Assembly: GCA_964401285.1 (NCBI GenBank)
Contig: CAYNXY010000008.1
Location: 1 to 29,288, forward strand
Direction of reading: 5' to 3'
Origin: an uncultured Candidatus Saccharibacteria bacterium
Lineage (GTDB): Bacteria; Patescibacteriota; Minisyncoccia; Minisyncoccales; CAYTKG01
Length of the DNA: 29,288 nt
Under the pieces are notes generated by a model. That model saw nothing but the letters and a program-made list of their open reading frames with translations. It was not told where the DNA came from and did not search any database. Of the stretch, positions 12,607-26,532 are shown piece after piece. The first letter of the stretch is position 1; each line of letters begins with the position of its first letter. The position numbers and the translations under genes were made by a program.

Positions 12607-14115
12607 TTAAGGTGTCAGGTCTTCGATAGATGTTCTTAGGTCGGGGATGACGATGAAAGATGAGAGACAATCTTCGCATCCCCAATTGGATGTTATACAA
12701 TTACAGCGGCCGATAGGGTTATCTCGAAGGTTGGAATCACTTTCTTTAAAGACCTCACATTTACCGCTAAAATCTTTTTCTTCTAAAAGAATTGCGGTAT
12801 AACTCCCGTCAATAATGATAGAAGAGATGCTGTCTTCCTCTATACCCTTATCGTTTACATTGATGCTTGTAATTGAACGAGTCATGGCATCGAGAGACAA
12901 CTCTTTTTGATAAGGGCCGTAGCAACCCTCCTCTCCTCTTTGTGCGTTCGGTTCTTCACATAACCAGACGCCACCTGAAAGATCTTCCTCTTCCTCGTAG
13001 GGCACCCTCATAAAGATAGTAACAGAAGAAACATCTTTGTCTACGGGGCTGCCTGTGATACTGGTTACAGAGGTAAGCTCTTTAGTGTGGTAGATGACAT
13101 GACACTTACCGGTGTGGTCTGGGTTTTCATGCAATACTACTCCGTACCAATAATAAGGAAAATTACAGTAATATTGTGTCTCGCCGCTTTCTGTTGTGAG
13201 GTCCCACTTAACAATTTTTTCGTAGTGGCGAGAAGAAAAGCATTCCGCATTTCTTTCTTCTGAGGTAGAGAAGGGACCTTTTACTTTATAAGCGGGCACG
13301 ATTTTGACGCCTAGCACTTCATCTTCGATTTCCGAATCCAGAAGAGCTGTCCCGCTACGCAAAAAAACTTCTTTACCCTTACATATATTTGTTTCAAGTT
13401 CGGGGTCTACTGTGTAATTTTCGCTACAGAGGTAAACACCAGGTAATTTATAAATAAACCTAATCGAGTTTATTGGTTGGTTGGCGTTGTAACAGTCACC
13501 GGCACTCTTATAACTACTTGTTGCTTGAATGTTACTGCTTACAATCTTTGGTTCACCTTTGTAGTCCGTGTTAGGGTAAAGACGAACTTCAAGTTGTCCT
13601 GGAGGGGAAAGAAAACGGATTGATGTGGTATTGTCGGGGGAATCAACATCAGGATTGTTCTGGGTTATTATTTTTTCCTCTCCGGTGCAGTTCTCGTCAG
13701 CGTAAACGATAACCCCTCCTATTGGCCGAGCTTCTGTCTTAGGAATTACAAGTTGAGGGTTGATGGTTTTAGAAAGGAGGAATGAGCCGAGCACTATTGC
13801 TCCCCCTAAAAAAGCCATCTGGACCCTGTTTTTTGCTTTTTGGTGTTGAGTTGGGCTGCCGGCTGAAGTAACAAAAAGAAACCCAGCGTAAACAAGCGAG
13901 GCAAAGCAAAACAAGCCGGAAACAGATATGACGAGCCAAAAAACATATTTTATGTAATCCGGCAAACCCATTTCTATATCGACCGGGGTTTCTATGTCTC
14001 CCGGCCCGGGTGGATAATTTATCTCTGTTTCCCGGACGGCAAAAGAAAAAGTCGGGAGTAAAAGAAGCGCGAGCGCCACTGCTGTCAGCGTAAATTTTCC
14101 TAAAACATTGTTCAT
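12607..14115 (-). CDS. Secreted protein: signal peptide, then a VirB2/TrbC-like two-helix pilin module, then a large Cys-rich extracellular domain. Paralogue of 17120-18796.
   Basis: The signal peptide ends ...SFA|VRE. Conserved block ETEINYPPGPG...LPDYIKYVFWLVISVSGLFCFASLVYAGF...AFLGGAIVLGSFLLSKTINPQL aligns with the N-terminus of the 558-aa protein. About 23 Cys lie in the C-terminal 400 aa. Confidence 0.55.
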   Translation of the reverse strand: MNNVLGKFTLTAVALALLLLPTFSFAVRETEINYPPGPGDIETPVDIEMGLPDYIKYVFWLVISVSGLFCFASLVYAGFLFVTSAGSPTQHQKAKNRVQMAFLGGAIVLGSFLLSKTINPQLVIPKTEARPIGGVIVYADENCTGEEKIITQNNPDVDSPDNTTSIRFLSPPGQLEVRLYPNTDYKGEPKIVSSNIQATSSYKSAGDCYNANQPINSIRFIYKLPGVYLCSENYTVDPELETNICKGKEVFLRSGTALLDSEIEDEVLGVKIVPAYKVKGPFSTSEERNAECFSSRHYEKIVKWDLTTESGETQYYCNFPYYWYGVVLHENPDHTGKCHVIYHTKELTSVTSITGSPVDKDVSSVTIFMRVPYEEEEDLSGGVWLCEEPNAQRGEEGCYGPYQKELSLDAMTRSITSINVNDKGIEEDSISSIIIDGSYTAILLEEKDFSGKCEVFKESDSNLRDNPIGRCNCITSNWGCEDCLSSFIVIPDLRTSIEDLTP

Positions 14116-14137
14116 ATTCTTATTTTAAAAATTTATT

Positions 14138-15412
14138 TTAAAAACTGCAACAATAAAAGTCATCTGCGTTTGGAGCCGGGTAGCGCGGAGTTATTCCCAC
14201 TGCTTCCATTGCCTGGCCGTAATAATACCCGTAACAGCCCTCAGTCGGCACCCCTTCAAGGGGTAGTCCATTTTCGTCTAACCCGTCTTTAGAAATAAAA
14301 GAGTGGGGAATAACATCCATGTCTTTAAGGTCGCGGCACCCCATAAAACCATATTCCGCTTTTTCTCCCCTTAAAACTGCTTCTATTAGATAGGGTTCGC
14401 TTACACACTCGGACATTCTTATTCTGGCTTTGTCGAGGTAGCCGTAAGTGAAAGGGATGGGGTCTCCGTCCTCATTTTTTTCAACTGAAGTGTGCCACGC
14501 GGAAGGGGTGATGCAATAAATATTTTTGTAATCTTCCATTTCAAGGCAGATTTTTCTTGCCGCCTCCTCCCAGCCGGACAACCCGTTCCAATCTCTGTGC
14601 GGTCCCGAGTCCATGCTGTTTAGGGCAGCGCTCAACCAAGCGGGGATGTATTCCAGATAACTTGCCAGGTAGTTTCTAATTTGGCTGCTGGTTGGTTCTT
14701 CAACCTTTCCTCCATTTACGTAAATACCGTATTGTTCGTTGTAAAGAAGCAGGGGGTAGAAAAATTCTTCAAAATAGGTGCGTTCAATTTTAGTGTGATA
14801 CGTATCTATTGCAGCGTCAAGTGGTTTTATCCCATCAACCTTCCCCTTGATAGATGCTGCTATGTCAGCGCAGTCCCCTTTACAGGGCTCATCTATACAT
14901 TCCGCGCAAGTGTGACAGCAACACGTAGGAGCAGTATAGCTCGCCGGAGGAGTGCTGGTGCAAAGACCGCAGGTATGCCCGTCTCCGCATCCCCCATCAC
15001 CCCAGTAAGGCGAGCAGTCCCAGGTGCGCTTATGGCAATCGGACTGGCAAACTCCTACCTCACACCCTTGGCTTTCGGCAAGAATTTCTTCAGCGAGGAC
15101 AATTTCTGCCCGCGCATTGTCTAAAATCTTTTGAGACCAGATTATAATATCATCGGCCATCTTTTCCGTATAGTCGGTAGAGCGGCCTATGGGAATTTCT
15201 GACGTGTTTTCTATGAGTTCTTTTTTTTCTCTGGGTTTTAATAAGCGGAGGTTGATTTCTTCTGTTTCTTCACATAAAAAATTTATCTCAGAAAGAGATG
15301 TTTCTTGAGCTAGAATAATGTTTTCTAAAAGAAAGTTACCGGCCAGGGCAACACTTAAAAACGTTAAAACCAGGCCGCACTTTATTATTCTTTTTTTGAT
15401 ATTTTTTGTCAT
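14138..15412 (-). CDS. Secreted Cys-rich protein of unknown function
   Basis: N-terminal signal peptide. Dense Cys cluster CEVGVCQSDCHKRTWDCSPYWGDGGCGDGHTCGLCTS...CCCHTCAEC...CKGDC. C-terminal CCSF. Confidence 0.5.
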   Translation of the reverse strand: MTKNIKKRIIKCGLVLTFLSVALAGNFLLENIILAQETSLSEINFLCEETEEINLRLLKPREKKELIENTSEIPIGRSTDYTEKMADDIIIWSQKILDNARAEIVLAEEILAESQGCEVGVCQSDCHKRTWDCSPYWGDGGCGDGHTCGLCTSTPPASYTAPTCCCHTCAECIDEPCKGDCADIAASIKGKVDGIKPLDAAIDTYHTKIERTYFEEFFYPLLLYNEQYGIYVNGGKVEEPTSSQIRNYLASYLEYIPAWLSAALNSMDSGPHRDWNGLSGWEEAARKICLEMEDYKNIYCITPSAWHTSVEKNEDGDPIPFTYGYLDKARIRMSECVSEPYLIEAVLRGEKAEYGFMGCRDLKDMDVIPHSFISKDGLDENGLPLEGVPTEGCYGYYYGQAMEAVGITPRYPAPNADDFYCCSF

Positions 15413-15454
15413 TTTGCGATTAAGTTCGCTTTAAAAATCAGCTGAATTAGGGTT

Positions 15455-17107
15455 TTACCAACAATGCCCGGCCGGGTCACCGGTGCAGGGGCATTCATTA
15501 TATCTGGGATCGCAGGCAGTTGGAGAACACCCTCCTCGATAGCAGAAATCATTTTCGGAGAGACCTAAAGAAGAGGGGGTGCCGAAAACCCCTTCCGGGT
15601 CTACCGGCCATCCATTTTTGCGGACTTCGAAGTGGAGGTGAGGGCCGAAAGAAGTGGTGCCGGTGCACCCCACCCGGCCTATAGGGTCACCCGTTTTTAC
15701 TTTTTGGCCGGGGGCAACTGTGAAGCTTCCTTTTATCATGTGAGCATAATAAGTTGACCAGGCGGCATCGCTTTCTATCCCACCGTGTTGTATTCTTACC
15801 CAGCAGCCGTATCCCCCTGAGTTATTGCAACTTGAGATATCTACTGTACCGTCCAGGGCGGCATGGATGGCTCTTCCACATTCGGCAGTAAGGTCCCAGG
15901 CGTTGACGGAACCGCGTCGCAGGTGGTCACCAGCGTCGCTGCTTAAAACTGTTGGGGAATAAATGGGGAGCTGCCACCCCTCGGAGGTGGGGTAAGGTTC
16001 TCCTTCTTCCGGGATTTGGGAAGCATCGGGGAAATCGTCGTGGTCAACGGCATTGACAACCTTTCTTTCCACTTCGTGGATCAACCCAATTTGGCCGTCT
16101 TGTAAAACATAAAAGTTACCAGCGTCCTCTGGCCAGTCAGTGCCCATTTCATCTTCAGATGAACGGGACTCACATTCGGGAGTGGCCCAATTTTCTATTA
16201 AAGGTTCGTTGGGGCCGATGATTACATAAACATCGCTTGCCGCATAACTGTTTATGGTGTTGATTGCATCTATTAGGGCTTGCGGGTCATCAAAACCGCC
16301 GCTGTCATCTCCCACACCAATTCTTACAATGGGAGTCACCCCTCTCCCTATTGCATCTTCAATACCTTGTTTAACAGAGCCCGTTATCTCCATGGCGTTT
16401 CCTATTTCCAAAGAGTAATCCATGCCGTAACCGTCTGCTTTAGAGTAAAGGTCTTCGTGGTAGTAATAAGCAGCGGAGTTGGCACCTACTCTCGAGGAGC
16501 TGCACTTGCTGAAGAGCAGGTTGAGCTCTTCGTCGGACATTGATTGCTCCTTAAAATCGTCGTTGTGGCCAAAAACATTAAAAATTAAACCGCCTTCTAT
16601 ATTTTTTTCAGGAAACTTATTAATTTCTTGGGCCAGCTCGTTTATTACTCTTTCCCTGTCGCCCACCAAGTGAGGATACCAGCCGATTTCTGTAAGGATG
16701 ATGTTTCTTTTTTTAACAACAGCGGGGGCTTCATCCACCCACGTGGTAATTCTTTTCCCGGAAGTGTTGTAGGCGTTGCCCGCCACAAGATAAAAACTAC
16801 CCAACCCTTCTTCGTATCCTTTTTCCGCGAGGGCTTCGTCCAGCTGAGTGGCAAAAGAGCTGAATTTTGGGTCGGTCATATTAAAAACGGGGGATAGGAA
16901 CTTAACGTTTCCCGACCCTCTTGTGCCAAATTCGTCAAACACTTGGGAGATATAGTCCGCAAGCCCGGAGGCGATACAGGCAGTGTCCTGGGCTTGGGTC
17001 TTAGCGGGGGCAAGAAAAGTGGGGTAAAGACAAACTCCAAGAATTACAAAAGCAAAAAACAGAGTGCCGGCTTTAAAGATATTATTTTTATTCTTTTTCC
17101 CCTTCAT
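15455..17107 (-). CDS. Secreted cell-wall hydrolase. Signal-anchor, a central domain of unknown fold that may be glycosidase-like, a C-terminal M23 (LytM) metallopeptidase, and a Cys-rich tail.
   Basis: M23 motifs HAALDGTVD (HxxxD) and GCTGTTSFGPHLHFEV (HxH). The locally higher GC content is a visual impression only. Confidence 0.7.
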   Translation of the reverse strand: MKGKKNKNNIFKAGTLFFAFVILGVCLYPTFLAPAKTQAQDTACIASGLADYISQVFDEFGTRGSGNVKFLSPVFNMTDPKFSSFATQLDEALAEKGYEEGLGSFYLVAGNAYNTSGKRITTWVDEAPAVVKKRNIILTEIGWYPHLVGDRERVINELAQEINKFPEKNIEGGLIFNVFGHNDDFKEQSMSDEELNLLFSKCSSSRVGANSAAYYYHEDLYSKADGYGMDYSLEIGNAMEITGSVKQGIEDAIGRGVTPIVRIGVGDDSGGFDDPQALIDAINTINSYAASDVYVIIGPNEPLIENWATPECESRSSEDEMGTDWPEDAGNFYVLQDGQIGLIHEVERKVVNAVDHDDFPDASQIPEEGEPYPTSEGWQLPIYSPTVLSSDAGDHLRRGSVNAWDLTAECGRAIHAALDGTVDISSCNNSGGYGCWVRIQHGGIESDAAWSTYYAHMIKGSFTVAPGQKVKTGDPIGRVGCTGTTSFGPHLHFEVRKNGWPVDPEGVFGTPSSLGLSENDFCYRGGCSPTACDPRYNECPCTGDPAGHCW

Positions 17108-17119: not shown

Positions 17120-18796
17120 TTATTTACATTTTTCCCATCCGTAGCTTTCAGCGATTGCGTTTGCGTTTTCTACTATCTGGTTTTGAAGCGAACCGTGAGG
17201 GGCGCCCCAGTAACTGATAACCGCTGCTACCTCGTCGCTGCATTTTTGGCTGTCCGCCCCACCCCTGTATTTTAAATGGAGCCCGGCAACAAAAAAGGCC
17301 TCTTGATATTCCCAGGGGGAGATTATGTCCCCCGTTCCGTAGCCGGCATAATCTATCATGTACTGCCGCACCGTTTCTTTAAGCCACACCCAGGTGGCGG
17401 GCATAGCTTGAGCCGGCCCCATTGCTCCTCCGCAGTGCTGGACGTCGGCGTAAATGCCGGAACCGGAAACGGGAATGGTTTCTATTGTGTATTGGGGGTA
17501 AAGACCTTTTACCTCTTCCCAGATGTTTTCAAATGTGTCCTGGTCGTAGCAAAAAGCATCAGGGTAATTTCCGTTGCCGGCAAACTTATTCAGCCCTGAC
17601 TCATGGTTTAAAAGCGCAAGTATCAGAGCGGCCCTGACTCCGGTTGCTTCTTCTGCCATTTTAGCTATGTTTTTTAACTCATTCATACTGGCTGAGGGAG
17701 CGACTGGTTCGTAGGGCGGCTTGACTCGGTCGTAAGCAAATGTTTTTGGTTTTTCGTAACTCCATATTTCTTTAACGTTTTTATCTTCAATCCCGGCAAA
17801 CGTTTGGTAATTGAGAGGAGCGTTCATGGTGTCTCTTATTAAGGCCTCTGCTACTTCTTCATTCTTTTTAGCTCCTTCCAGGCGGGCCTTAGCGTAGGCA
17901 AGCTCTCTTGTTTCTTCTCTTGCTTCTTTTATGAGGAACTGGAGCAAGGATTGAGTGGAGGTTATCGCCTCCCGTAGATTGGGAGGGGTGCCGACCCCTT
18001 GGGCGGCACAAAGGTTGCCTATTTCGATATTACAAGGGTCTACCTCTTCTTCACAAAAATCCTCCGCAGGTTGACACCCGCTGTCAGGGTTTTCACAGTC
18101 ATGTGTACACCTTAGTTTTTCCCCCTCGCAGTCCGCTTCTGCGGCGCAGTCGCAGGTGTTTACGAGAATTTGCAGACATTCTGCCACCTGAGGGATGCTT
18201 ACCTCTTCACTCTCCACAGAGGTTATTTCCCAAACATCGGTTGACTCCTTGAAAGTAAGTTCTCCCCAATCTTTGGTGTTTTGGACAAGCCCGGTCATGG
18301 GGATTTCTACGTAAGTGTCTTTTTCCACTTCCATCTCTTCGTAAGCCGGGATGTCTCCACCGGTTATTTCGCCCGGACTTTCCATCTCAAAGACAAGAAG
18401 GTTGGGGTCCAAAACTTGAAGAATGATATAGGTGGAAAGAATAATACCTACCCCCATCAGCCCGGCTGATATTTTATCAAGGGCAGTTTTGGCCTGGACG
18501 GCCGAAGTGGTCACCCCCGATATGAGATAAGTGACTCCCCCCGAAACTAAAGCGTAAAAACAGGCGAGGCCGGTGGTAAAAATTAAGAGGTGGTAAACGT
18601 ATTTTAAGTAAAGAGGAAGGGCCTGTTTTCTTTCATACTCTCCCGAATTTATTTTTTCCATAAAGATCTGCGGGGGCTCTGCACCCGGAACATTGGGGTA
18701 GAGAATTTCTATTTCTGCAGCAAGGGTGGCGCTGCCCCTAAAAAGAAAAGACAACGCGAGAATCAATAAAATTATCTTTTTTGTTTTTCTTTTCAT
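17120..18796 (-). CDS. Secreted fusion protein: VirB2/TrbC-like pilin module at the N-terminus and a VirB1-like lytic transglycosylase (SLT) domain at the C-terminus
   Basis: Signal peptide, then AEIEILYPNVPG...LPLYLKYVYHLLIFTTGLACFYALVSGG...GLMGVGIILSTYIILQVLDPNL. C-terminal LLNHESGLN...GGAMGPAQAMPATW resembles the SLT catalytic ES and GLMQ(I/L)MP motifs. Confidence 0.55.
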   Translation of the reverse strand: MKRKTKKIILLILALSFLFRGSATLAAEIEILYPNVPGAEPPQIFMEKINSGEYERKQALPLYLKYVYHLLIFTTGLACFYALVSGGVTYLISGVTTSAVQAKTALDKISAGLMGVGIILSTYIILQVLDPNLLVFEMESPGEITGGDIPAYEEMEVEKDTYVEIPMTGLVQNTKDWGELTFKESTDVWEITSVESEEVSIPQVAECLQILVNTCDCAAEADCEGEKLRCTHDCENPDSGCQPAEDFCEEEVDPCNIEIGNLCAAQGVGTPPNLREAITSTQSLLQFLIKEAREETRELAYAKARLEGAKKNEEVAEALIRDTMNAPLNYQTFAGIEDKNVKEIWSYEKPKTFAYDRVKPPYEPVAPSASMNELKNIAKMAEEATGVRAALILALLNHESGLNKFAGNGNYPDAFCYDQDTFENIWEEVKGLYPQYTIETIPVSGSGIYADVQHCGGAMGPAQAMPATWVWLKETVRQYMIDYAGYGTGDIISPWEYQEAFFVAGLHLKYRGGADSQKCSDEVAAVISYWGAPHGSLQNQIVENANAIAESYGWEKCK

Positions 18797-19243: not shown

Positions 19244-21045
19244 AGATTTTTCTTTAAACTTTTTTTAGATCTTTTTATTTTTGCCACCTCTTCCGGTGAA
19301 CTTGTTATAATTTGATTTTCAGTGTAGGAGGCAACCACACTCATCGCAACATGCTTATTGCCTGCGAAAAAGAGTGTTTCCCCTACGCTTGCCTCAAGAA
19401 GCCGCATTTTTTCTTCTTCAGTGAGATTAAAAGTTTTTTGTACGACATCTATAGCGGAGGGGCTTTGTTTCATTAAAATTTGGAGAGCGGAGTTGGCAAC
19501 AATAGGTTTGCCGTATTCGGAGCGCATAAAGTCGCTTACGTCTTGAGTGATGGTGGTAACGCCCAGCCAGTATTTTCTTGCTCTTTTTACCAACCCATAA
19601 AGGAAAGAGGCACCATCTTCGGTGCGCATCATCCACCAGGCCTCATCTATCACTAGAATTCTTTTCTTGAGCTCTGTCCTTATCTGGTTCCAGATATAGC
19701 GCATAATGATAAACATTGCCAGTTGTTTTAATTCTTCCTCCATGTCCCGGATTCCAAAGACAACCAGGTTGTTACCCAGGTCCAGATTAGAGGGCTGGTT
19801 AAAAAATTCGGAGTAGGTGCCTTTTGTGTATTTGCGCAGGCGGCGCACCAAGCTTTCTGCCCCTTCCATTGTTTCCAGAACGGACTCCAGGTCCGAAAGA
19901 AGAGGGGTGTTTTCCTGCCAGGTGCTCGGGTCGCTTTCGGGAGTTATATCGCGCGCGGCGTAAGTGGCTGTTAAGGCCTGGTCAATAATTGCGTCTTCTT
20001 CCGGGCTGAGCCCGCCCAGCATGATTCTCATAAGGCCTACCAGGTTTATAATATTGGAGCGCAAAACGTTTTCGGGGTTTTCGTCTTCCCTTGGAGTAGG
20101 AAGGTCAAAGGGGTTCATGTGGTGAGGGGAGGTAAGGGAGATGTTTAAAAAGGAGCCGCCGGTAGCATCAGCCAGAAACTCGTATTCGTTTTCCGGGTCA
20201 ACAACTATTACGTCAACCCCGGTCATCATAGATCTTAAAATTTCCAGCTTGGCAAGAAATGATTTCCCGCAGCCCGAGGTGCCGAAAAAGACCTGGTTAT
20301 AGCTTTCCAGGGAGAACCGGTCAAAAAGAATAAGAGAGTTGTTGTGCTGATTAATTCCGTAAAGAATTCCTTTATTAGAGCTTAAGTCAAAGGAAATAAA
20401 GGGGAAAACGCTTGAAAGGGGAGCAGTATTCATCGGGGTGTGGACTAAAAGTTTGTCCAATCCGTAGGGAGAGGTGCTTAAAAACCCGTCTCCCTGCTGC
20501 CAGGTGGCCGGTTTTATGTATATGAGGCGGCTTTCCAAAATGGAGCGGAGAGTGGTTTCTATTTCCCTCATTTTATCCAGTTCGTCCGAATAGATGGTAA
20601 GATAAAGCCCGAAACTGAACATCTTGTCTGTCCCCGTTTGGAGGCGGTCTCTAAGCTGCTCCATGTTTTGATAGGCGAACTCGAGCTGGGGGGAGCGGAT
20701 GCGGCCTTGTTCCTGTCTTTCCATCATTTCTGCTTTCGTGGCGGTTATTCTTTTTCTAAGCTCTTTAAGTGTTTCGCTGGTGTCTGTGGGGTGAATGAAA
20801 AAAGAAATATCCATCGGGACGTCAAGATTGATGATAGGGGAGAACCAACCGGTGGTAAGATAGCGGGGGTAGGAAAAGATGAAAAAGGTTTTAGCATATC
20901 TTTCCCCAAGCTGGATGTGGTCTCCATTCAAGCGAAGAGAAGGGGGGGCCACAAAGTCACGCACATCAAGGACTTGTGATTCGGGCACCTTCATCTTTTC
21001 CCCGCTGATCTTCTTTTTTATTTTTTCAAAAATAGATGTTGCCAT
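19240..21045 (-). CDS. virB4: VirB4/TrbE/CagE-family secretion ATPase, C-terminal 601-aa part
   Basis: Walker A GTSGCGKS. Walker B ILVIDEAWWMM, the family-specific DEAW. CagE/TrbE-type region DVRDFVAPPSLRL...GERYAKTFFIFSYPRYLTTGWF. C-terminal motif LGVTTITQDVSDF. Confidence 0.8.
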   Translation of the reverse strand: MATSIFEKIKKKISGEKMKVPESQVLDVRDFVAPPSLRLNGDHIQLGERYAKTFFIFSYPRYLTTGWFSPIINLDVPMDISFFIHPTDTSETLKELRKRITATKAEMMERQEQGRIRSPQLEFAYQNMEQLRDRLQTGTDKMFSFGLYLTIYSDELDKMREIETTLRSILESRLIYIKPATWQQGDGFLSTSPYGLDKLLVHTPMNTAPLSSVFPFISFDLSSNKGILYGINQHNNSLILFDRFSLESYNQVFFGTSGCGKSFLAKLEILRSMMTGVDVIVVDPENEYEFLADATGGSFLNISLTSPHHMNPFDLPTPREDENPENVLRSNIINLVGLMRIMLGGLSPEEDAIIDQALTATYAARDITPESDPSTWQENTPLLSDLESVLETMEGAESLVRRLRKYTKGTYSEFFNQPSNLDLGNNLVVFGIRDMEEELKQLAMFIIMRYIWNQIRTELKKRILVIDEAWWMMRTEDGASFLYGLVKRARKYWLGVTTITQDVSDFMRSEYGKPIVANSALQILMKQSPSAIDVVQKTFNLTEEEKMRLLEASVGETLFFAGNKHVAMSVVASYTENQIITSSPEEVAKIKRSKKSLKKNL

Positions 21046-21051
21046 ATGAGT

Positions 21052-21687
21052 TTATTGAATTAATTCCGGCGGTACTACCGGGTAATATCCGACCTCCGCT
21101 TCTCTGGGGTGGTGCAGGGTCCAAAAAAGTTCAATAATCTCCGAGCTTCGAAGCGGAACGCTTTGTAATCCGCAGTTTCTAAGCCCCATCGCTACAAACT
21201 CCATTCTTTGCCAGAGCTGATTTTTACATCTTTGAAAAGTATTTTCAGTAAGCTGAGGAGCATTCGCCTTTTTAAGAGAAAATTTATTTCCCTTTTCGCC
21301 TTTTGTTTCCCACAACGTGAAAGGGACCACCACAAAGAATTTTTTAGACATAATGTTTCCTTGGGTCAGAAGCTCCTTAATAAAGCTGCGATATTCTCTT
21401 GTTTGAATTCTAAGCAGCTCTTCTTCCTGTTCTTTTTCTAGTTCCTCCAATTTTTCTAAATAGCCGGTGAGGTTGAGACGGCGGGACTGAACAACGATTT
21501 GGCAGGAAAAATCAAGCGTGTTTAAAAAACCTTGAAAGCGCTGGACTATTGCCTGCTGTTCATCCCGTGATTTAAGAGAAAAGTTAATGGAGGAAACCAT
21601 AAGTATTCCTCGCAAGGCCTTGCTTTTGAGCACGATTACCCCTTCTCTTATTTGTTCTATGGGTAGAAAACCCTGTGTGCTTGGCAT
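21052..21687 (-). CDS. N-terminal domain of the VirB4-family ATPase, 211 aa. It is in the same frame as 19240-21045 and separated from it by a single TAA.
   Basis: LPIEQIREGVIVLKSKALRGILMVSSINFSLKSRDEQQAIVQRFQGFLNTLDFSCQIVVQSRRL fits the VirB4 N-terminal pattern. The two ORFs together give 815 aa, with the Walker A about 470 aa from the start, as in full-length VirB4. Confidence 0.6.
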   Translation of the reverse strand: MPSTQGFLPIEQIREGVIVLKSKALRGILMVSSINFSLKSRDEQQAIVQRFQGFLNTLDFSCQIVVQSRRLNLTGYLEKLEELEKEQEEELLRIQTREYRSFIKELLTQGNIMSKKFFVVVPFTLWETKGEKGNKFSLKKANAPQLTENTFQRCKNQLWQRMEFVAMGLRNCGLQSVPLRSSEIIELFWTLHHPREAEVGYYPVVPPELIQ

Positions 21688-21757: not shown

Positions 21758-22177
21758 TTATGATTCTTCTCTGTATGTGTCAAGGCGCGAGGAAAGGTTT
21801 TCCAATCTGCTTTTTCGGGTGACGGGTGATGTTTCTTCTTTTTCCTCCGGCTCTTTCATTTTCGGGGGAGAATATGTTTGGGAAATTACTGCTTTTTTCT
21901 TCCACAAATATTGGCGTCCACCTAAAAGGTGGCTGATGAAGTTTACTACAACTTTTGCCAAAGAAAGCCCCTGGTATTTCCCAAAGGCAAGAGCCACGCT
22001 GGCCCCCATTATTATTAAACTTAAAAAAAGGAATACGATAATATGTTCAGGAACGAGAAGAAAATAAAGAACAGCACAAATCCCTACTCCTGCTCCCGCA
22101 AAAAGAACTTGGCGGAAGCTCATGGGCCCCAGTATTTTTATCTCCCTTTTTATAAATTGGGGGACGAGATATCTCAT
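21758..22177 (-). CDS. VirB3/PrgI-like small two-TM protein
   Basis: 139 aa, two hydrophobic helices (VLFAGAGVGICAVLYFLLV; IVFLFLSLIIMGASVALAF) after a short basic N-terminus. It lies directly upstream of the VirB4 gene. No specific motif beyond architecture and position. Confidence 0.4.
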   Translation of the reverse strand: MRYLVPQFIKREIKILGPMSFRQVLFAGAGVGICAVLYFLLVPEHIIVFLFLSLIIMGASVALAFGKYQGLSLAKVVVNFISHLLGGRQYLWKKKAVISQTYSPPKMKEPEEKEETSPVTRKSRLENLSSRLDTYREES

Positions 22178-22599
22178 TCTTCAATTGGCTCTCTGTATTG
22201 ATCTTTACCTTTAGGTGTTTTTTTAACGGCTTTTTCTTCTGCTCCATTCTTTCCTGCCTCATCTTTTTCCGCTTCTACCTTTTCTTGATAAAGGTTTTCC
22301 AGAGTGTCTTTTACTCTAGAGAAGACAAAACGATTCATAATTTGGGATATTCTCTCCGCGCTTTTTTCTTCAATCCTTCCATCTTTAATTAAAGCTTCCT
22401 TAAACTTTGAAGGGGCAAGCAAGCCGACTAGCACCTCGCCCATTAAGGATACAAGAGCAGAATGTTCTTTATCGTTTAATTCTTCTTGGGCTGAAACCCT
22501 TTCAATGGTATCAATGGTTCTATCTGCTTCCATTGCCTCCTTTAATTCTTGAGGAGCGCTTCTGTAAAGCTGTAAAAATTGTTTATCTGAAACTTTCAT
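22174..22599 (-). CDS. Hypothetical soluble acidic protein, first gene of the minus-strand operon, with a 4-nt overlap onto the VirB3-like gene
   Basis: 141-aa ORF with no TM helices and a K/E-rich C-terminus. Coding-like codon structure. No domain recognised. Confidence 0.45.
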   Translation of the reverse strand: MKVSDKQFLQLYRSAPQELKEAMEADRTIDTIERVSAQEELNDKEHSALVSLMGEVLVGLLAPSKFKEALIKDGRIEEKSAERISQIMNRFVFSRVKDTLENLYQEKVEAEKDEAGKNGAEEKAVKKTPKGKDQYREPIEE

Positions 22600-22750: not shown

Positions 22751-22779
22751 TTGACGAAAAGGGAGAAATATGGTATTAT
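22751..22779 (+). promoter_or_regulatory. Near-consensus sigma70 promoter: TTGACG, 17-nt spacer, TGgTATTAT extended -10
   Basis: -35 at 22751-22756. -10 TATTAT at 22774-22779 with TG at 22771-22772. RBS AGGAG at 22806-22810, 7 nt before the ATG at 22818. Confidence 0.65.
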
Positions 22780-22817
22780 TTAGACAGTTGGTTGTCAATC
22801 AAAAAAGGAGAAAAGAG

Positions 22818-24056
22818 ATGAAAAAACTGTTTGTCAGTGGAGGCAACTTTATTGTTGCCCTCCTTCTAGGGGCGGTGCTCTCCCTGTTAAACTTTGTAGC
22901 AGGGAGTGTGCTCGTAAGTGTTGTTGTGTGGATAATGGGTGGTTTTTCAAGGATTCTTGATTTCTTGCCCTGGGTGGCGGTTATCTCCGCTTTTATAGGG
23001 TGTTTTACATCCTTTCGTTCTGTTTTTAAAAAAGAACGATGGGCGTTTATTCTGACACCCCTAGTAGTGTTCGGGGGGGGCAGGATGTTTGGATTTTTAC
23101 CTCAGTTTTCTTTATTAGGAGGAGTGAAAATGTCTCAACTAGCAGTAAGATTAGTAAGGTGGATTTTATTTGTCACTGTTGTTGGGCTGCCGGTGATGAT
23201 TGTGCTGACGGCCTTGATTTTTCTTCTCACCTGGCTTCTTTTTGGCAAGGAGTTTGCTCAAGATCTTTTGACTCTCCCGCTCTTTTATTGGGCGAAAAGG
23301 TGGGCTAAAAAGAAAAAACTGTTTGTCTCTATTCCGGAAGGGTTTGCAGTGCTTGTAGTCGAGGGTGGCGAGTATGTTAAAACTCTTGTCCAGTGGGAAG
23401 GATGGACCACAGACAGCGAAGGGAACATTATTTCTGGAGAAGAACCTGAGTTCTTAGGTGGACTATTTGACCTGGGGGGAATCAGGTGGCTAGGGTTAAA
23501 AGGTCAGGTTTACAGTTTCCATTTCCGCTATCATTCAATCCGGGAAGATGGAACTGCAGTTGAACACGATGAAGATTTCGAACAAGTCATGCTTAAAACC
23601 CACCCTCCTTATCTTTTCGCAGCAAGAGATGTGGAAGATAAGGGAAATGTCCCGGTAGATCTAGAGTTTCCGTTTATCATGAGGGTGTTTAACCCTCGCA
23701 AGTTTGTTTTTGAGGCCCAAGATTCTCTAGAGATTGCTTTTAGTAAGATCGAACCGGTGGTGACTGGATTGGTCGGGCAGTGGGACTGGCAGGACATCCG
23801 GTCTGAAAAGGAAACCTTTGAAACGGAGCTCTGGGAAAAACTGAAGAGCGTCCGGAGCTATTTAAAGGATGAGTTGGGGATTCTTATCCTAGAGATGCCC
23901 CTGCGGCGAATTATCCCGCCGGAGGCCTTTGCTGAAAGCTCAGCGGAAGCGCAGAGAGCTGAGGGTTTAGGCAAGGCAGCCGTTGTCGAGGCCCAGCGAG
24001 CAGGAGAAGCTCGAGCTGGAGCAATCCGTTCGTTCTTAAAAGTTCTTTTTGGCTAA
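22818..24056 (+). CDS. Polytopic membrane protein (about 5 TM) fused to an SPFH/band-7-like domain
   Basis: N-terminal hydrophobic helices. IPEGFAVLVVEGGEYVKTLVQWEG...VPVDLEFPFIMRVFNPRKFVFEAQDSLEIAFSKIEPVVTGLVGQ resembles the SPFH beta-sheet and helix core. Start moved from 22770 to the RBS-preceded ATG at 22818. Confidence 0.5.
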   Translation: MKKLFVSGGNFIVALLLGAVLSLLNFVAGSVLVSVVVWIMGGFSRILDFLPWVAVISAFIGCFTSFRSVFKKERWAFILTPLVVFGGGRMFGFLPQFSLLGGVKMSQLAVRLVRWILFVTVVGLPVMIVLTALIFLLTWLLFGKEFAQDLLTLPLFYWAKRWAKKKKLFVSIPEGFAVLVVEGGEYVKTLVQWEGWTTDSEGNIISGEEPEFLGGLFDLGGIRWLGLKGQVYSFHFRYHSIREDGTAVEHDEDFEQVMLKTHPPYLFAARDVEDKGNVPVDLEFPFIMRVFNPRKFVFEAQDSLEIAFSKIEPVVTGLVGQWDWQDIRSEKETFETELWEKLKSVRSYLKDELGILILEMPLRRIIPPEAFAESSAEAQRAEGLGKAAVVEAQRAGEARAGAIRSFLKVLFG

Positions 24057-24070
24057 CTATTTCCAAAAAG

Positions 24071-24102
24071 AAAAAAGAGCTGTCAAGTGACAGCTCTTTT
24101 TA
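24071..24102. terminator. Bidirectional rho-independent terminator: AGAGCTGTCA-agt-TGACAGCTCT with A and T flanks
   Basis: 10-bp perfect stem 24076-24085 with 24089-24098. T-run on the plus strand and A-run on the 5' side. The hairpin lies between the convergent SPFH gene and the VirB6-like gene. Confidence 0.8.
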
Positions 24103-24147
24103 ATTTACTTTATACATGTTATAAGCCCTCTTTTCTTGTTTTTTGCT

Positions 24148-26532
24148 TTATGTTGTGCCTGGCCCCTTGTAGACATTCTCGTTTTCTTCTCTAGGTTCTG
24201 TGTCTTCAGAGGGCTGGGACCGAGGAACCCAACCGCTTTCTATGACTTGATTTCTATGCTTTATTGCTTTTTCAAAGCGTTCAACGACTTCAACGTCACT
24301 AGGTAAGCTTTCTATTCTTTCTTTCAGTTTGTCTGATGGTAGGTTTACGACTTCATCTACCAGTTTTTCATTTTCAGGTTCATTCAGCCAGCTATAATCT
24401 TCAAGCCCCGGCAGGTCTTCTCCGAAGACAGCTGAGTAAGAGCGACTGTTTTTGATAAGACGGAGAAGTTGAGGGGATGCTTTCTTTAATTGGTAAGCCC
24501 CCATCTCCCTTACTCTTTGTCTCATTTTTTCTCCTACACCTCCACCTCTTTCTGCGACTTCTCTTACTATGTTTGGAGAACGGTGTGCTCTTACTAAAGA
24601 ATCTTGGAAAAAGCTGTTTTCCAGCACTTCATTGGGCATATCTTCCAGGTCACTGTTTCTAAGATTGGCAGTAGTTTTTTCAAAACCAGCCAGAAGCAAC
24701 GCTTCAGCCATGCCTTTGCCTTGGTTCATAAGCTCTTTTACGTCGTCATCCTCAAAGCCATCGGATACAAGGTTTCCAAGAACAACTCGGCCGGTTTCCG
24801 GCATTTTATTTAACACTTCTTCAGTGAACCCTTCAACCTCCTCTTCACTTGCTTTACTGAGATCAATATCTTGTATGCTTCTTAACTCACTTCTGAGCTC
24901 TTCTTCGTTTTCCCCGGTTAGAATGTCGGGAGATGCTTGGGCAATATCTTTCAGGGTATCCGGGGAATATGTTCTCATCTTTTTTATGGCATCGTTAAAC
25001 ATGCCGGGCATTGCTTCTCTAACTTTTTTAAGGCCTTTTCCTCCTTTCTCGTCTAGGACATGTTTTAGAAAAGCAACTCTTTGCCTTGTTTTTGTTACAT
25101 TGGCTGGGCCTCCGAGGTTACCCCTTCCCCAAGCAAGAGCTGTCTCAAAAGATTCAAATTGTTCATCATATTTTTTCTTCTCCTCTTCTATTTTTTTTCT
25201 TTGTTTGTCCGAAAACTGTAGTCCAGCTGTTGCTATTTTTCCTCCAGCCCAACCTCCGACTGCTGATCCTACGGACGCAGCAACTCTTCCAGCAGGCCCT
25301 TTATCTCTTACTTTCTTCCAGAATTCGTCGCCCATCGCCCCCTGAGAGACACGCTCAAGGGTTTCTCGACCGCCTTCGCCTGCTGCTAATCGACCTAGGC
25401 CGCCTAGTTGCTTTTCTTCTCCGAGAACTCCGGCTGCTCTAGCTCCCACATATCCGGCAGCGGCACCACCTGCCGTTTTAACTCCTGACCAGGCAGTATT
25501 GGTTCCGCTTATTACTTTTTCAGCGCCTGTGGCACTGGAACTTAGAACTTGAGTAAAGCCGTAGAAATAAAAGAAAAGAGTCATTGCTAAGGGAACCAAG
25601 CTTTGCAGGGTGGTTTTCCATATGGGGTCGCCTACTCCTTCTGCATTTATAAAAGCAGTTGCTTCGTTCATGAATTTCGTTGCGAGGAAAACTATGAAGG
25701 CCCCTGTTACACCTATAAAACACCATTGGAGAAAATTATTCCACCATTGCTCCCAGAAATCTCTTGTTTTAGGGAAGATGCGAGCGGCAAAGGCAACGGG
25801 AGCTAGAATAACCAAGGTCCAAAGCACCACGTAACGGGCCATAAAAAGAATACTGAAAAGAATGAAGATAACACCTGTCCAACCGTTAAAAAAAGCAATA
25901 AGAAGTAATCTGAAATTTTCTTTAAATTCTTGTTGAGGGTTGAACCAACAGGCGCCTTTAGAAAGCAACCCTCCCCTCATCTCTTCAGAAAGATCTTCGA
26001 GCTCTCCTAAAATAGATATTTCTTCCCCCACCGTGAACAACCCGGTGAAATAATTCATTAATATATTGGAAGCATCAATTATAACTCCGCAGATAACCGG
26101 GCTGAAATTAACAAGCAGGGCGAAAAACAAAAGGCGGGGGAGTAATCGTTGAATCTTATACTCTTCTTTCTCCAGAGCGGTAGCCAAGCCCACAAAAGCG
26201 AGCGCTATTACAAAAAACATATTCATTATGTCCCGAGCTAGTGTCCACCCCGTATGGACTACCGGGTTTTGGTTTGGTCCGGCTCTGCCGGTGTAGTTCC
26301 AGGAGATAAACTTATCGCTTAAAACCAGCCGAAAAAGAGTCAAAGATATTTCTAAAAACAACTCTGAAAAAGAATGGATTAGGTTGAAGACAGAAGAAAT
26401 AAGGCAGCTTGTTATTGAGTTTGCCAGGTTTGCAGCATAACTTTTGCAAAACGGGAAAAGCATCGCTAAAAGGGCGATGGTTCCTAGAAAAACTATTTTG
26501 TGTTTCTTCATTTTTTTAAGAATGAGACCCAT
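24148..26532 (-). CDS. VirB6/TrbL-like polytopic membrane protein with a long Gly/Ala-rich and acidic C-terminal extension
   Basis: Signal or TM1, a periplasmic loop, then 5-6 TM helices (FFVIALAFVGLATAL, LLFFALLVNFSPVICGVII, IFILFSILFMARYVVLWTLVILAPVAFAA, FIGVTGAFIVFLATKF, VPLAMTLFFYFYGF). These are followed by a Gly-rich stretch GGAAAGYVGARAAGVLGEEKQLGGLGRLAAGEGG as in TrbL. Confidence 0.5.
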   Translation of the reverse strand: MGLILKKMKKHKIVFLGTIALLAMLFPFCKSYAANLANSITSCLISSVFNLIHSFSELFLEISLTLFRLVLSDKFISWNYTGRAGPNQNPVVHTGWTLARDIMNMFFVIALAFVGLATALEKEEYKIQRLLPRLLFFALLVNFSPVICGVIIDASNILMNYFTGLFTVGEEISILGELEDLSEEMRGGLLSKGACWFNPQQEFKENFRLLLIAFFNGWTGVIFILFSILFMARYVVLWTLVILAPVAFAARIFPKTRDFWEQWWNNFLQWCFIGVTGAFIVFLATKFMNEATAFINAEGVGDPIWKTTLQSLVPLAMTLFFYFYGFTQVLSSSATGAEKVISGTNTAWSGVKTAGGAAAGYVGARAAGVLGEEKQLGGLGRLAAGEGGRETLERVSQGAMGDEFWKKVRDKGPAGRVAASVGSAVGGWAGGKIATAGLQFSDKQRKKIEEEKKKYDEQFESFETALAWGRGNLGGPANVTKTRQRVAFLKHVLDEKGGKGLKKVREAMPGMFNDAIKKMRTYSPDTLKDIAQASPDILTGENEEELRSELRSIQDIDLSKASEEEVEGFTEEVLNKMPETGRVVLGNLVSDGFEDDDVKELMNQGKGMAEALLLAGFEKTTANLRNSDLEDMPNEVLENSFFQDSLVRAHRSPNIVREVAERGGGVGEKMRQRVREMGAYQLKKASPQLLRLIKNSRSYSAVFGEDLPGLEDYSWLNEPENEKLVDEVVNLPSDKLKERIESLPSDVEVVERFEKAIKHRNQVIESGWVPRSQPSEDTEPREENENVYKGPGTT

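What the first reader, a model, noticed from the sequence alone, without database searches (positions are those of the whole stretch)
12607..26532. A ~14 kb T4SS-like accessory locus with no coupling protein or relaxase in view. It is likely a cell-surface or host-interaction apparatus rather than a conjugation system.
The locus is bounded by bidirectional terminators at 12511-12541 and 24071-24102. The minus strand carries a tight operon with 4-nt overlaps or gaps of 12-70 nt. Its genes, in order, are a hypothetical, a VirB3-like protein, the two VirB4 halves, a small membrane protein, a pilin-SLT fusion, an M23 hydrolase, a Cys-rich protein and a pilin-Cys-rich fusion. A separately transcribed VirB6/TrbL-like gene lies at 24148-26532. 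VirB4 is firmly identified by Walker A GTSGCGKS and the DEAW Walker B. Apart from VirB4 the parts list is unusual: pilin-like modules fused to 400-aa extracellular domains, three Cys-rich secreted proteins, and two cell-wall hydrolases. No VirD4, relaxase, VirB8/9/10/11 or integrase is visible in 29 kb. The rest of the window has a CPR-like gene content, and epibiotic CPR bacteria are reported to depend on T4SS-like genes. This locus may therefore be a minimal apparatus for attachment to, or transfer into, a host cell. It appears to be an undescribed architectural variant.
Basis: partly seen in the sequence, partly recalled or inferred. Interest (0 to 1): 0.8.

Follow-up and report, generated by a model that had tools for sequence, protein, structure and literature searches.

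The report
Patescibacterial chromosomal type IV secretion locus
This is a real type IV secretion gene cluster, of the chromosomal, relaxase-free kind already described in 2023-2025 for the ultrasmall Patescibacteria (CPR), so it is a new example of a known system and not a new architecture; its one less-described feature is that its pilin-like membrane modules are fused to large cysteine-rich outer domains.

Summary
VirB4, PrgI/VirB3, VirB6/TrbL and M23 pass curated profile cut-offs.

The "two VirB4 halves" are a conserved two-gene pair, a TrsD-like gene plus a ~600-aa VirB4, found in 78 of 80 related species. They are not a broken gene.

The window is a whole 29,288-bp contig from a Paceibacteria-like CPR bacterium. 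The locus lies between jag/yidC/rnpA/dnaA/dnaN and ksgA, and this synteny recurs across the 80 species representatives. It is therefore vertically inherited, origin-proximal core DNA, not an accessory island.

No coupling protein, relaxase or integrase was found in the contig, in 3 kb beyond it, or among the Pfam families listed for the neighbouring ORFs of related loci that I scanned.

All of this matches the "Patescibacteria-clade T4SS" of Wang et al. 2023 and Quiñonero-Coronel et al. 2025, so "undescribed variant" is not supported.

What the papers I searched do not mention is the lineage-specific cassette downstream of VirB4. It holds a pilin-hairpin–lytic-transglycosylase fusion, an M23 protein, a rare Cys-rich protein and a pilin-hairpin–βγ-crystallin fusion. 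Such long pilin-module proteins are the norm in related loci (72 of 86). Function is inferred as host contact or transfer, not conjugation.

The parts
12509..12536 (.). G+C-rich hairpin terminator between jag/KhpB (12017-12478, +) and the end of the minus-strand operon; scored on the + strand.
   Evidence: 12-bp stem with 5 GC pairs. A and T runs flank the stem on both sides, so it could serve both convergent transcripts.
12607..14115 (-). g1, 502 aa. Signal peptide, a PF18895-type pilin hairpin (residues ~54-117), then βγ-crystallin-like Cys-rich domains (15 Cys).
   Evidence: PF18895 E 5e-4; Crystall E 7e-4; full-length homologues at 33-47% identity, many carrying PF18895. AF2 pLDDT 78. Foldseek top hits are γ/β-crystallins (E 2e-5); bacterial βγ-crystallin 3hzb has TM 0.78.
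14138..15412 (-). g2, 424 aa. Secreted, 23 Cys (5.4%), no known domain, from a rare lineage-restricted family.
   Evidence: no hits; only 22 cluster representatives among 1.84 billion proteins; the same domain is embedded in 800-1200-aa proteins, several of them pilin-module proteins, in related T4SS loci.
15455..17107 (-). g3, 550 aa. Secreted protein with an unknown N-terminal ~360-aa domain, a C-terminal M23 peptidase domain (402-504) and a Cys-rich tail.
   Evidence: PF01551 E 3.7e-24. HxH and Asp are present, but the canonical HxxxD histidine is Val. In some relatives this domain is fused to the g4-type protein.
17120..18796 (-). g4, 558 aa. Signal peptide, pilin-type hairpin (56-129), Cys-rich linker, long helix, then a family-3 (MltB/Slt35-like) lytic transglycosylase (370-558). 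This is the VirB1-equivalent.
   Evidence: homologues carry PF13406; E399 and the GGAMGPAQ motif are conserved; nine homologues keep the pilin+SLT fusion. C-terminal domain pLDDT ~95; top PDB hits are SltB1 and Slt35.
18818..19243 (-). g5, 140/141 aa. Small polytopic membrane protein overlapping the VirB4 stop codon; lineage-specific.
   Evidence: hydrophobic segments; called as 140 aa in an independent assembly; the only homologue is in the closest relative, L001. A small ORF at this position is common in relatives.
19240..21045 (-). VirB4 ATPase, 601 aa, MPF_FATA/CD1110 type, lacking the usual N-terminal domain.
   Evidence: NF045971 E 6e-110, matching model positions 183-733 of 752. PF19044; thousands of ~595-600-aa patescibacterial homologues, around 70% identical among those listed.
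21052..21687 (-). TrsD-like protein, 211 aa, equivalent to the VirB4 N-terminal domain and encoded as a separate gene.
   Evidence: NF041427 TrsD E 8e-6; CD1110 model positions 10-119. PF26593 TraC-like; present in 78 of 80 loci; its frame relative to virB4 is not conserved.
21758..22177 (-). PrgI/VirB3-like membrane protein, 139 aa.
   Evidence: PF12666 E 3.3e-9, above cut-off; present in 76 of 80 loci.
22174..22599 (-). g9, 141 aa. Soluble acidic protein with no known domain; a conserved core gene between VirB6 and PrgI.
   Evidence: jackhmmer finds it in 65 of 80 loci; the small ORF after VirB6 in relatives belongs to the same family.
22770..24056 (+). Polytopic membrane protein with an SPFH/Band_7 domain, 428 aa, transcribed divergently inside the locus.
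   Evidence: PF01145 E 1.4e-9; same position and strand in 14 related loci; 12 Band_7 hits among the neighbours' unknown ORFs.
24072..24101 (.). Bidirectional terminator between the convergent SPFH and VirB6 genes.
   Evidence: 13-bp stem, scored on both strands.
24148..26532 (-). Extended VirB6/TrbL-like protein, 794 aa. Polytopic N-terminal half (~100-320) and a long hydrophilic C-terminal half. It lies 24 nt downstream of ksgA and is probably co-transcribed with it.
   Evidence: PF04610 E 1.8e-8, above cut-off. TM segments; homologue in 55 of 80 loci, usually directly after ksgA.

Best explanation
The locus is the chromosomal, vertically inherited type IV secretion system typical of Patescibacteria. 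It is the clade derived from monoderm MPF_FATA conjugation machinery, here in the Paceibacteria-type arrangement next to the replication origin.

Shown:
- A cytoplasmic-membrane engine made of VirB4, a separately encoded TrsD-like N-domain, PrgI/VirB3 and an extended VirB6, plus a conserved unnamed 141-aa protein.
- Directly downstream, a lineage-specific cassette of exported, disulfide-rich proteins.
- Two of these carry an N-terminal PF18895 pilin-type helical hairpin. One is fused to a family-3 lytic transglycosylase and the other to βγ-crystallin-like domains.
- There is also an M23-domain protein.

Inferred:
- The VirB4/VirB3/VirB6 platform uses ATP to assemble or position the hairpin proteins at the cell surface.
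- The transglycosylase and M23 proteins open peptidoglycan, either the cell's own or possibly the host's.
- The βγ-crystallin protein and the 424-aa Cys-rich protein act as contact or adhesion surfaces.
- The apparatus serves contact with, and macromolecule exchange across, the interface with a host cell. It does not serve conjugative DNA export.
- The direction of transport and the cargo are unknown.
For: Core identities come from curated profiles.

The VirB4 nearest relatives are all patescibacterial, with the same ~600-aa length.

The order ksgA–VirB6–g9–PrgI–TrsD–VirB4–[variable cassette]–jag–yidC–rnpA–dnaA–dnaN–PBP1 recurs in the 80 species representatives. Counts of loci with a hit: TrsD 78, PrgI 76, VirB6 55, dnaA 57, yidC 59, ksgA 37.

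No T4CP, relaxase or integrase was found in the whole 29.3-kb contig, in the 3-kb extension, or among the Pfam families listed for 224 neighbouring ORFs of related loci.

For the lytic transglycosylase, βγ-crystallin and hairpin folds.

Literature:
- The same gene set, the absence of relaxase and the proximity to dnaA are reported for 2,400 genomes (PMC12102498).
- T4SS and pilin genes are essential for epibiotic growth of Southlakia epibionticum, which lacks a recognisable coupling protein or relaxase (PMC10633639).
- The 2025 review treats these systems as potentially pilus-forming monoderm T4SSs (PMC12857230).
Against: - Function is inferred entirely by analogy with a distantly related class (Saccharimonadia). 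No experiment exists for Paceibacteria.
- The rest of this genome is unseen, so a T4CP or relaxase elsewhere cannot be excluded. T4CP homologues occur away from virB4 in most Patescibacteria (PMC12102498).
- No free-standing short pilin is present in the contig.
- The pilin-module profile shows no sequence similarity to any solved VirB2/TraA pilin, so pilus formation is unproven.
- The M23 domain lacks the canonical first zinc-ligand histidine.
Confidence: 0.65

Rival explanations
1. The pilin-like hairpins are only membrane anchors and no pilus is made. The system would be a pilus-less Gram-positive-type channel. In that reading g4 is a PrgK/TraG(pIP501)-like, membrane-anchored VirB1 analogue that opens the wall for the channel, and g1 and g2 are surface adhesins analogous to PrgB.
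For: - 72 of 86 complete pilin-module proteins in related loci are 170-1520 aa (median 361), far larger than polymerising VirB2 pilins.
- The contig has no short pilin.
- The module profile has no sequence match to solved conjugative pilins.
- Monoderm VirB1 analogues are normally TM-anchored and encoded just after virB4 (PMC12102498, section 13).
Against: - The module is a specific, conserved family (PF18895; invariant Tyr-Pro, Gly and Pro positions), not a generic TM anchor.
- It recurs in arrays beside virB4.
- Short versions coexist with long ones in 14 loci.
- Pilin genes are essential in S. epibionticum (PMC10633639).
Confidence: 0.25
2. The machine imports material. It would take up host or environmental DNA, RNA or other macromolecules, as H. 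pylori ComB or archaeal Ced do, to feed a cell that cannot make nucleotides.
For: - There is no relaxase or T4CP.
- VirB4 gives partial hits to the CedB/CedD import ATPase models (E 6e-15 and 6e-6, far below cut-off).
- comM lies 2 kb away and a PilB-like ATPase is at the contig start.
- The idea is raised in PMC11665869 and PMC12857230.
Against: - The CedB hits cover only the shared P-loop region.
- In S. epibionticum competence depends on T4P and ComEC and is dispensable, whereas the T4SS is essential (PMC10633639, PMC12857230).
- No DNA-binding or channel component specific to uptake was found here.
Confidence: 0.15
3. It is part of an integrated conjugative element whose relaxase, coupling protein and oriT lie outside the contig.
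For: - VirB4 belongs to a family named for conjugative elements (CD1110/CTn2).
- Only about 32 kb of the genome is visible.
Against: - Both flanks are housekeeping genes, and the same flanks surround the locus in dozens of species at 57-84% VirB4 identity.
- G+C is unremarkable.
- There is no integrase, tRNA or repeat boundary.
- Only 15 relaxase genes lie near virB4 among the 2,474 virB4 genes found in 3,035 Patescibacteria genomes (PMC12102498).
Confidence: 0.04

Closest known systems
Patescibacteria-clade T4SS (Quiñonero-Coronel et al. 2025, PMC12102498; Southlakia epibionticum SEML1_0006-0019, Wang et al. 2023, PMC10633639)
   Same: - VirB4 of MPF_FATA ancestry with an adjacent TrsD, PrgI/VirB3 and VirB6.
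- PF18895 pilin-type genes.
- Peptidase and lysozyme genes just downstream of virB4.
- No relaxase or T4CP nearby.
- Chromosomal position beside dnaA, dnaN, rnpA and ksgA.
   Different: - Here both pilin modules are N-terminal parts of 500-aa proteins (a lytic transglycosylase and βγ-crystallin domains). S. epibionticum instead has an array of six VirB2-like pilins.
- An SPFH membrane protein is inserted divergently.
- The 424-aa Cys-rich protein belongs to a very rare family.
- None of these details is mentioned in the papers I could search.
Monoderm conjugative MPF_FATA systems (pGO1 Trs, pCF10 Prg/Pcf, C. difficile CTn2/CD1110)
   Same: - Same VirB4 family.
- TrsD+TrsE-like split as in pGO1.
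- PrgI, and the order virB4 followed by a cell-wall hydrolase as in prgJ-prgK.
- No outer-membrane core complex.
   Different: - No relaxase, T4CP, oriT or mobile-element boundaries.
- Pilin-type modules are present, and these systems generally lack them.
- The hydrolase partner is M23 rather than CHAP.
- No PrgB-type adhesin.
Mycoplasma ICE transfer genes (Mbov_0395 pilin-like protein, Mbov_0397 VirB4)
   Same: VirB4 hits NF045975 (E 1e-79, below cut-off). g1 weakly hits the 80-aa pilin-like NF045849 (E 2e-3). This suggests that a pilin-like hairpin next to VirB4 also exists in another wall-less or monoderm lineage.
   Different: Both scores are below the curated cut-offs. Those are mobile ICEs, and their pilin-like protein is short.
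T4CP-less effector translocators (Bordetella Ptl, Brucella VirB)
   Same: They work without a coupling protein and export proteins rather than DNA (cited in PMC12102498 and PMC12857230).
   Different: They are diderm MPF_T systems with a VirB7/9/10 core and VirB11. None of those components is detectable here.

Membership tests
Patescibacteria-clade T4SS | VirB4 of MPF_FATA affinity whose nearest relatives are patescibacterial | tested here: met
   the best model is NF045971 (CD1110), above its cut-off; all close homologues are from Paceibacterota/Parcubacteria MAGs. No phylogenetic tree was built.
Patescibacteria-clade T4SS | TrsD-like gene adjacent to virB4 | tested here: met
   NF041427 E 8e-6 (below cut-off) and CD1110 N-terminal positions 10-119. 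PF26593; 78 of 80 related loci.
Patescibacteria-clade T4SS | PrgI/VirB3 and VirB6/TrbL homologues near virB4 | tested here: met
   PF12666 and PF04610, both above their gathering scores.
Patescibacteria-clade T4SS | VirB2-like (PF18895) pilin genes near virB4 | tested here: met
   g1 scores 20.5 bits (cut-off 26.6) and g4 is undetected alone. However, 23 of 25 aligned modules of their homologues hit PF18895, best E 1.7e-12, as do 42 of 127 cassette ORFs in relatives.
Patescibacteria-clade T4SS | No relaxase or coupling protein near virB4 | tested here: met
   Searches cover the whole contig plus 3 kb. The rest of the genome was not seen.
Patescibacteria-clade T4SS | Chromosomal location near dnaA, dnaN, rnpA and ksgA (Paceibacteria pattern) | tested here: met
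   for the window. for the relatives.
Patescibacteria-clade T4SS | Needed for epibiotic growth on a host | not testable with these tools
   Known only for S. epibionticum (PMC10633639).
Conjugative T4SS / integrative conjugative element | Relaxase, T4CP (VirD4/TcpA) and oriT | tested here: not met
   No such Pfam or NCBIfam hit in any substantial ORF, and none among the Pfam families listed for 224 neighbour ORFs of relatives. oriT was not searched for.
Conjugative T4SS / integrative conjugative element | Integrase or recombinase and variable insertion context | tested here: not met
   No integrase and no tRNA. The flanks are conserved across species.
Polymerising VirB2/TrbC/TraA conjugative pilin | Signal peptide followed by a two-helix hydrophobic hairpin | tested here: met
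   (hydrophobic segments); helices 56-96/99-129 in g4 and 54-83/88-117 in g1, pLDDT 81-92.
Polymerising VirB2/TrbC/TraA conjugative pilin | Small mature protein (roughly 70-120 aa) consisting of the hairpin alone | tested here: not met
   The two proteins are 502 and 558 aa. The median is 361 aa in relatives.
Polymerising VirB2/TrbC/TraA conjugative pilin | Detectable homology to experimentally solved pilins | tested here: inconclusive
   The profile of 25 modules searched against all PDB sequences gave no pilin hit at E<=10. A fold-level comparison of the isolated hairpin was not possible.
T4SS VirB1-type cell-wall hydrolase of monoderms (PrgK, TraG of pIP501) | Membrane-anchored lytic transglycosylase with a catalytic Glu, encoded just after virB4 | tested here: met
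   One small gene (g5) separates it from virB4.
T4SS VirB1-type cell-wall hydrolase of monoderms (PrgK, TraG of pIP501) | Second CHAP amidase/peptidase domain in the same protein | tested here: not met
   No CHAP domain was found. Instead an M23 domain lies in the next gene, and it is fused to the g4-type protein in some homologues.
Diderm VirB/D4 (MPF_T) system | VirB7/VirB9/VirB10 outer-membrane core and VirB11 | tested here: not met
   No hits.

The most novel reading that the evidence does not exclude
In Paceibacteria the PF18895 'pilin' hairpin may be a general export-and-display handle. VirB4 would polymerise, or lever out of the membrane, subunits that each carry an enzyme or adhesin: here a lytic transglycosylase and βγ-crystallin domains, and in relatives 1000-aa multi-domain proteins. 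The result would be a decorated fibre that both binds and cuts into the host wall. That would be a mode of T4SS pilus use not described for any system.
Probability: 0.15. Interest if true: 0.65.

Novelty: new member of a known kind. Interest (0 to 1): 0.3.

Why it matters
The Patescibacteria T4SS is one of the few molecular handles on how a very large, mostly uncultured bacterial radiation lives on other cells, and its function is still unknown. This locus does not change that picture; it is a textbook example of it.

It does show concretely that, in the Paceibacteria branch, the conserved ATPase/VirB3/VirB6 engine is coupled to a fast-evolving cassette of cysteine-rich surface proteins. Most of these are built on a pilin-type hairpin. 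These proteins are natural candidates for host-range determinants, and for the first biochemical tests of whether the hairpin polymerises and what the lytic enzymes cut.

Tried and rejected
- **Extending the contig.** The exact-match look-up of VirB4 failed. Look-ups of ksgA and the LTD protein found only short Logan contigs, which added 3 kb on the right (ComM, a DksA/TraR zinc-finger protein and a 466-aa unknown) and nothing on the left. The window is itself the whole NCBI contig.\n- **PDB sequence searches.** Searches with g1, g2 and g4 gave nothing useful.\n- **Pilin-module profile against the PDB.** Only chance transmembrane-hairpin matches were found.\n- **AFDB fold search.** It was unavailable.\n- **g5 and g2 in the 80 related loci.** They were found only in the closest relative by direct search.\n- **RNA genes.** The tRNA and Rfam scans were empty.\n- **Promoter-like hits.** They are not above shuffled expectation, so no operon start is claimed from them.\n- **Recent frameshift or stop mutation splitting VirB4.** Rejected: the two genes share a frame here, but not in 58 of 78 relatives, and ~600 aa is the standard VirB4 length.\n- **Alternative genetic code.** Rejected: ORFs are intact under table 11 and the TrsD stop is TAA.

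Full report
**Observation.** A minus-strand run of nine genes extends from 22599 to 12607, joined by 4-nt overlaps or gaps of 6-70 nt. A separate minus-strand 794-aa gene lies at 24148-26532, and a plus-strand 428-aa gene at 22770-24056 sits between them. Strong hairpin terminators lie at 12509-12536 and 24072-24101; the second scored on both strands, the first on the + strand. The second separates the convergent 428-aa and 794-aa genes, so it is internal to the locus. Promoter-like and terminator-like counts as a whole are not above shuffled expectation, so only these two long hairpins are taken seriously.

**Core genes.** The evidence for each gene is as follows.
- The 601-aa protein is a VirB4 ATPase. 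NCBIfam NF045971 (CD1110 family) gives E 6e-110 and 368.7 bits against a cut-off of 325, and Pfam gives P-loop_TraG and AAA_10. GTSGCGKS and DEAW are present.
- The match covers positions 183-733 of the 752-position model. The preceding 211-aa protein covers positions 10-119 and also hits the TrsD/TraD family (E 8e-6) and, in precomputed annotation, PF26593 TraC-like.
- The 139-aa protein is PrgI/VirB3 (PF12666, above threshold) and the 794-aa protein is TrbL/VirB6 (PF04610, above threshold) with a long hydrophilic C-terminal half.
- The 141-aa first gene has no family hit. An iterative search finds it in 65 of 80 related loci, always between VirB6 and PrgI, so it is an unnamed core component.

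**The "split" VirB4.** In the window the TrsD-like gene and virB4 share a reading frame and are separated by TAA plus six bases. Two observations argue against a recent split:
- Every one of the 120 best-scoring VirB4 homologues listed is 582-610 aa long.
- In 78 related loci the two genes share a frame in only 20, about the one in three expected by chance, and the upstream stop is TAA, TAG or TGA.

This is therefore an old two-gene arrangement, as in pGO1 TrsD/TrsE. It is the most abundant T4SS component reported in Patescibacteria (PMC12102498, section 13).

**Context.** The window is an entire 29,288-bp NCBI contig.
- To the left of the locus lie a PilB-type ATPase, ruvB, an LTD protein, tyrS, ruvC, yebC, a class A PBP, dnaN, dnaA, rnpA, yidC and jag.
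- To the right lie ksgA/rsmA, a LysM-M23 protein and comM.
- A Logan contig from the same organism adds full-length ComM, a DksA/TraR zinc-finger protein and a 466-aa unknown.
- There are no tRNA or Rfam hits, and G+C across the locus is unremarkable.

**Relatives.** A scan of one genome per GTDB species returned 80 loci with VirB4 at 57-84% identity. They are labelled Paceibacterota, Staskawiczbacteria, Minisyncoccales, Nealsonbacteria, Kaiserbacteria and the like. BLAST of the window's proteins against their ORFs gives these counts of loci with a hit:

| Gene | Loci with a hit (of 80) |
|---|---|
| TrsD | 78 |
| PrgI | 76 |
| yidC | 59 |
| dnaA | 57 |
| VirB6 | 55 |
| dnaN | 51 |
| jag | 48 |
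| PBP1 | 41 |
| ksgA | 37 |

The recurring order is ksgA–(0-3 genes)–VirB6–g9–PrgI–TrsD–VirB4–[0-5 variable genes]–jag–yidC–rnpA–dnaA–dnaN–PBP1. The locus is thus vertically inherited, origin-proximal chromosomal DNA, not an island.

**Missing conjugation parts.** No substantial ORF of the window hits a T4CP, relaxase, integrase or VirB9/10/11 model. I scanned 127 ORFs from the cassettes downstream of virB4 and 97 other unassigned large ORFs from the related loci.
- The cassette ORFs gave PF18895 pilin (42), a few peptidoglycan-binding or hydrolase domains, and single hits such as PT-TG.
- The other ORFs gave UvrD/PcrA helicases (15), Band_7 (12) and housekeeping enzymes.
- None of the families listed was a T4CP or relaxase. 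Only the 25 most frequent of 39 families were displayed.

**The accessory cassette.** g1-g4 all have N-terminal signal or anchor sequences and 2.5-5.4% Cys, against 0.86% in the housekeeping proteins.
- **g4 (558 aa).** Homologues of the C-terminal third carry PF13406 (SLT_2). E399, in an ES motif, and GGAMGPAQ are nearly invariant. The AlphaFold model (pLDDT 76 overall, ~95 for residues 370-558) has a helical hairpin at 56-129, a Cys-rich disordered loop, a long helix and a lysozyme-like domain. The best PDB matches of that domain are SltB1 and Slt35; the Foldseek E-values are weak (about 0.02) but the probability is 1.00. Nine close homologues keep the hairpin+SLT fusion, and several add an M23 domain. 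g4 plus g3 therefore behave as one VirB1-equivalent module.
- **g3 (550 aa).** It has a strong M23 domain. In the PDB alignments the position of the first zinc-ligand His (HxxxD) is Val, while Asp and HxH are kept. Catalytic competence is therefore uncertain.
- **g1 (502 aa).** It has full-length homologues at 33-47% identity, many annotated PF18895. Its model (pLDDT 78) shows a hairpin at 54-117 followed by β-domains. Their PDB matches are γ/β-crystallins (E about 2e-5) and a bacterial βγ-crystallin domain (3hzb, TM 0.78).
- **g2 (424 aa).** It has no family or PDB match and only 22 cluster representatives among 1.84 billion proteins. Its domain recurs inside 800-1200-aa proteins of related T4SS loci, several of which carry the pilin module.
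- **g5.** This is a small polytopic membrane protein seen only in the closest relative.

**Pilin modules.** An HMM built from the N-termini of g1 and g4 finds 98 proteins in the 80 loci.
- Of the 86 not cut by contig ends, only 14 are shorter than 170 aa. The median is 361 aa and the maximum is 1520 aa.
- 46 of 60 loci have only long forms.
- The extensions have a median of 2.6% Cys.
- 23 of 25 aligned modules hit PF18895.
- The module profile finds no solved VirB2/TraA pilin in the PDB by sequence.
- In the window only g1 and g4 carry the module; there is no free short pilin.

**Comparison with the literature.**
- Quiñonero-Coronel et al. 2025 (PMC12102498) describe a monophyletic patescibacterial VirB4 clade nested in MPF_FATA. 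They report TrsD, PrgI/VirB3, VirB6 and PF18895/VirB2-like pilins near virB4, and VirB1-like or M23/LysM hydrolases. T4CPs are almost never adjacent, only 15 relaxase genes lie near virB4 among the 2,474 virB4 genes they found in 3,035 genomes, and in Paceibacteria the locus lies close to dnaA, dnaN, rnpA and ksgA.
- Wang et al. 2023 (PMC10633639) showed that the T4SS and its pilin genes are essential for epibiotic growth of S. epibionticum, and noted that no coupling protein or relaxase is recognisable.
- A 2025 review lists these as pilus-capable monoderm T4SSs of unknown function (PMC12857230).

Searches of these papers and of the library found no mention of pilin fusions to large domains, the SPFH gene, or Cys-rich partners. 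That absence is limited to the open-access library I could search.

**Mechanism.**
- *Shown:* the parts list, their order, their conservation and their predicted folds and topology.
- *Inferred from established T4SS biology:* VirB4, with its TrsD N-domain, docks on VirB3 and VirB6 in the membrane and powers extraction or assembly of hairpin proteins. The hairpin's C-terminus faces outward, so the fused transglycosylase and βγ-crystallin domains are extracellular, which fits their cysteine content. The transglycosylase and M23 proteins open peptidoglycan.
- *Committed reading:* I take this to be a host-contact and transfer apparatus, not a conjugation system (confidence about 0.65 overall; identity as a Patescibacteria-type T4SS above 0.9).
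- *Main rival:* the hairpins are only anchors and no pilus is made (0.25). The size of the fusions argues for this; the specificity and array-like recurrence of the module argue against it.
- *Other rivals:* import of nucleic acids remains possible (0.15). An ICE with distant relaxase and T4CP is unlikely (0.04) given the conserved housekeeping synteny.

**Verdict.** This is a correctly observed, well-annotated locus that is a new member of a known kind. Interest is modest (0.3). The residual novelty lies in the pilin-hairpin fusion proteins and the rare Cys-rich cassette.

Noticed in passing
window 22174-22599 (-): The unannotated 141-aa soluble protein upstream of PrgI belongs to a family present in 65 of 80 related T4SS loci, always between VirB6 and PrgI. 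It is a conserved core component with no Pfam or NCBIfam model.
   Followed up: partly
window 22770-24056 (+): A polytopic membrane protein with an SPFH/Band_7 domain is inserted on the opposite strand inside the T4SS locus. The same gene, in the same place and orientation, occurs in 14 related loci. It is not mentioned in the T4SS papers I read.
   Followed up: partly
window 19240-21687 (-): The TrsD-like gene and virB4 are in the same frame, separated only by TAA plus 6 nt. This looks like a split gene, but it is a chance frame coincidence: only 20 of 78 relatives share a frame.
   Followed up: yes
window 15455-17107 (-) and 27467-28618 (+): Both M23 domains in the window have 'NAxD' where canonical M23 enzymes have HxxxD. 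The first zinc-ligand His is Val in g3 and Tyr in the LysM-M23 protein, with a His further upstream. HxH is intact in both. These may be a non-canonical or regulatory M23 subtype common in this lineage.
   Followed up: partly
L003, L004, L007, L008, L011, L012, L013, L016, L020 (large ORFs next to VirB4 or upstream of VirB6): Proteins of about 800-1200 aa in related T4SS loci contain a domain homologous to the window's rare 424-aa Cys-rich protein, and several of them also carry the pilin module. The cassette proteins look like a modular, shuffling repertoire.
   Followed up: partly
Related loci, cassette ORFs scanned: One cassette ORF downstream of virB4 in a relative carries a PT-TG pre-toxin domain. 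Others carry NlpC/P60, 3D, pectate-lyase-like and Ig-like domains. This hints that toxins or adhesins are among the variable partners. I did not identify which locus holds the PT-TG hit.
   Followed up: no
L082:2-1758 (beyond the right end of the window): Past comM the same organism encodes a DksA/TraR-type zinc-finger protein (119 aa) and a 466-aa protein with only a faint Cys-rich 'Paramecium surface antigen' hit. No T4CP or relaxase is present.
   Followed up: partly
window 109-1089 (+) and 2377-3000 (+): The contig starts inside a PilB/T2SSE-type ATPase gene (type IV pilus or T2SS), and a lamin-tail-domain protein lies next to ruvB. A type IV pilus ATPase therefore lies about 12 kb from the T4SS.
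   Followed up: no
window 2955-4262 (+): The mechanical ORF for tyrS (435 aa, TTG) is over-extended. An independent gene call on the identical sequence gives 399 aa (L083 2064-3263).
   Followed up: yes
Kaiserbacteria-type loci L037-L080, upstream of ksgA: A UvrD/PcrA-type helicase (about 650-680 aa) commonly sits just upstream of ksgA and the T4SS genes in the more distant relatives (15 hits). It is probably housekeeping PcrA, but it is consistently adjacent.
   Followed up: no
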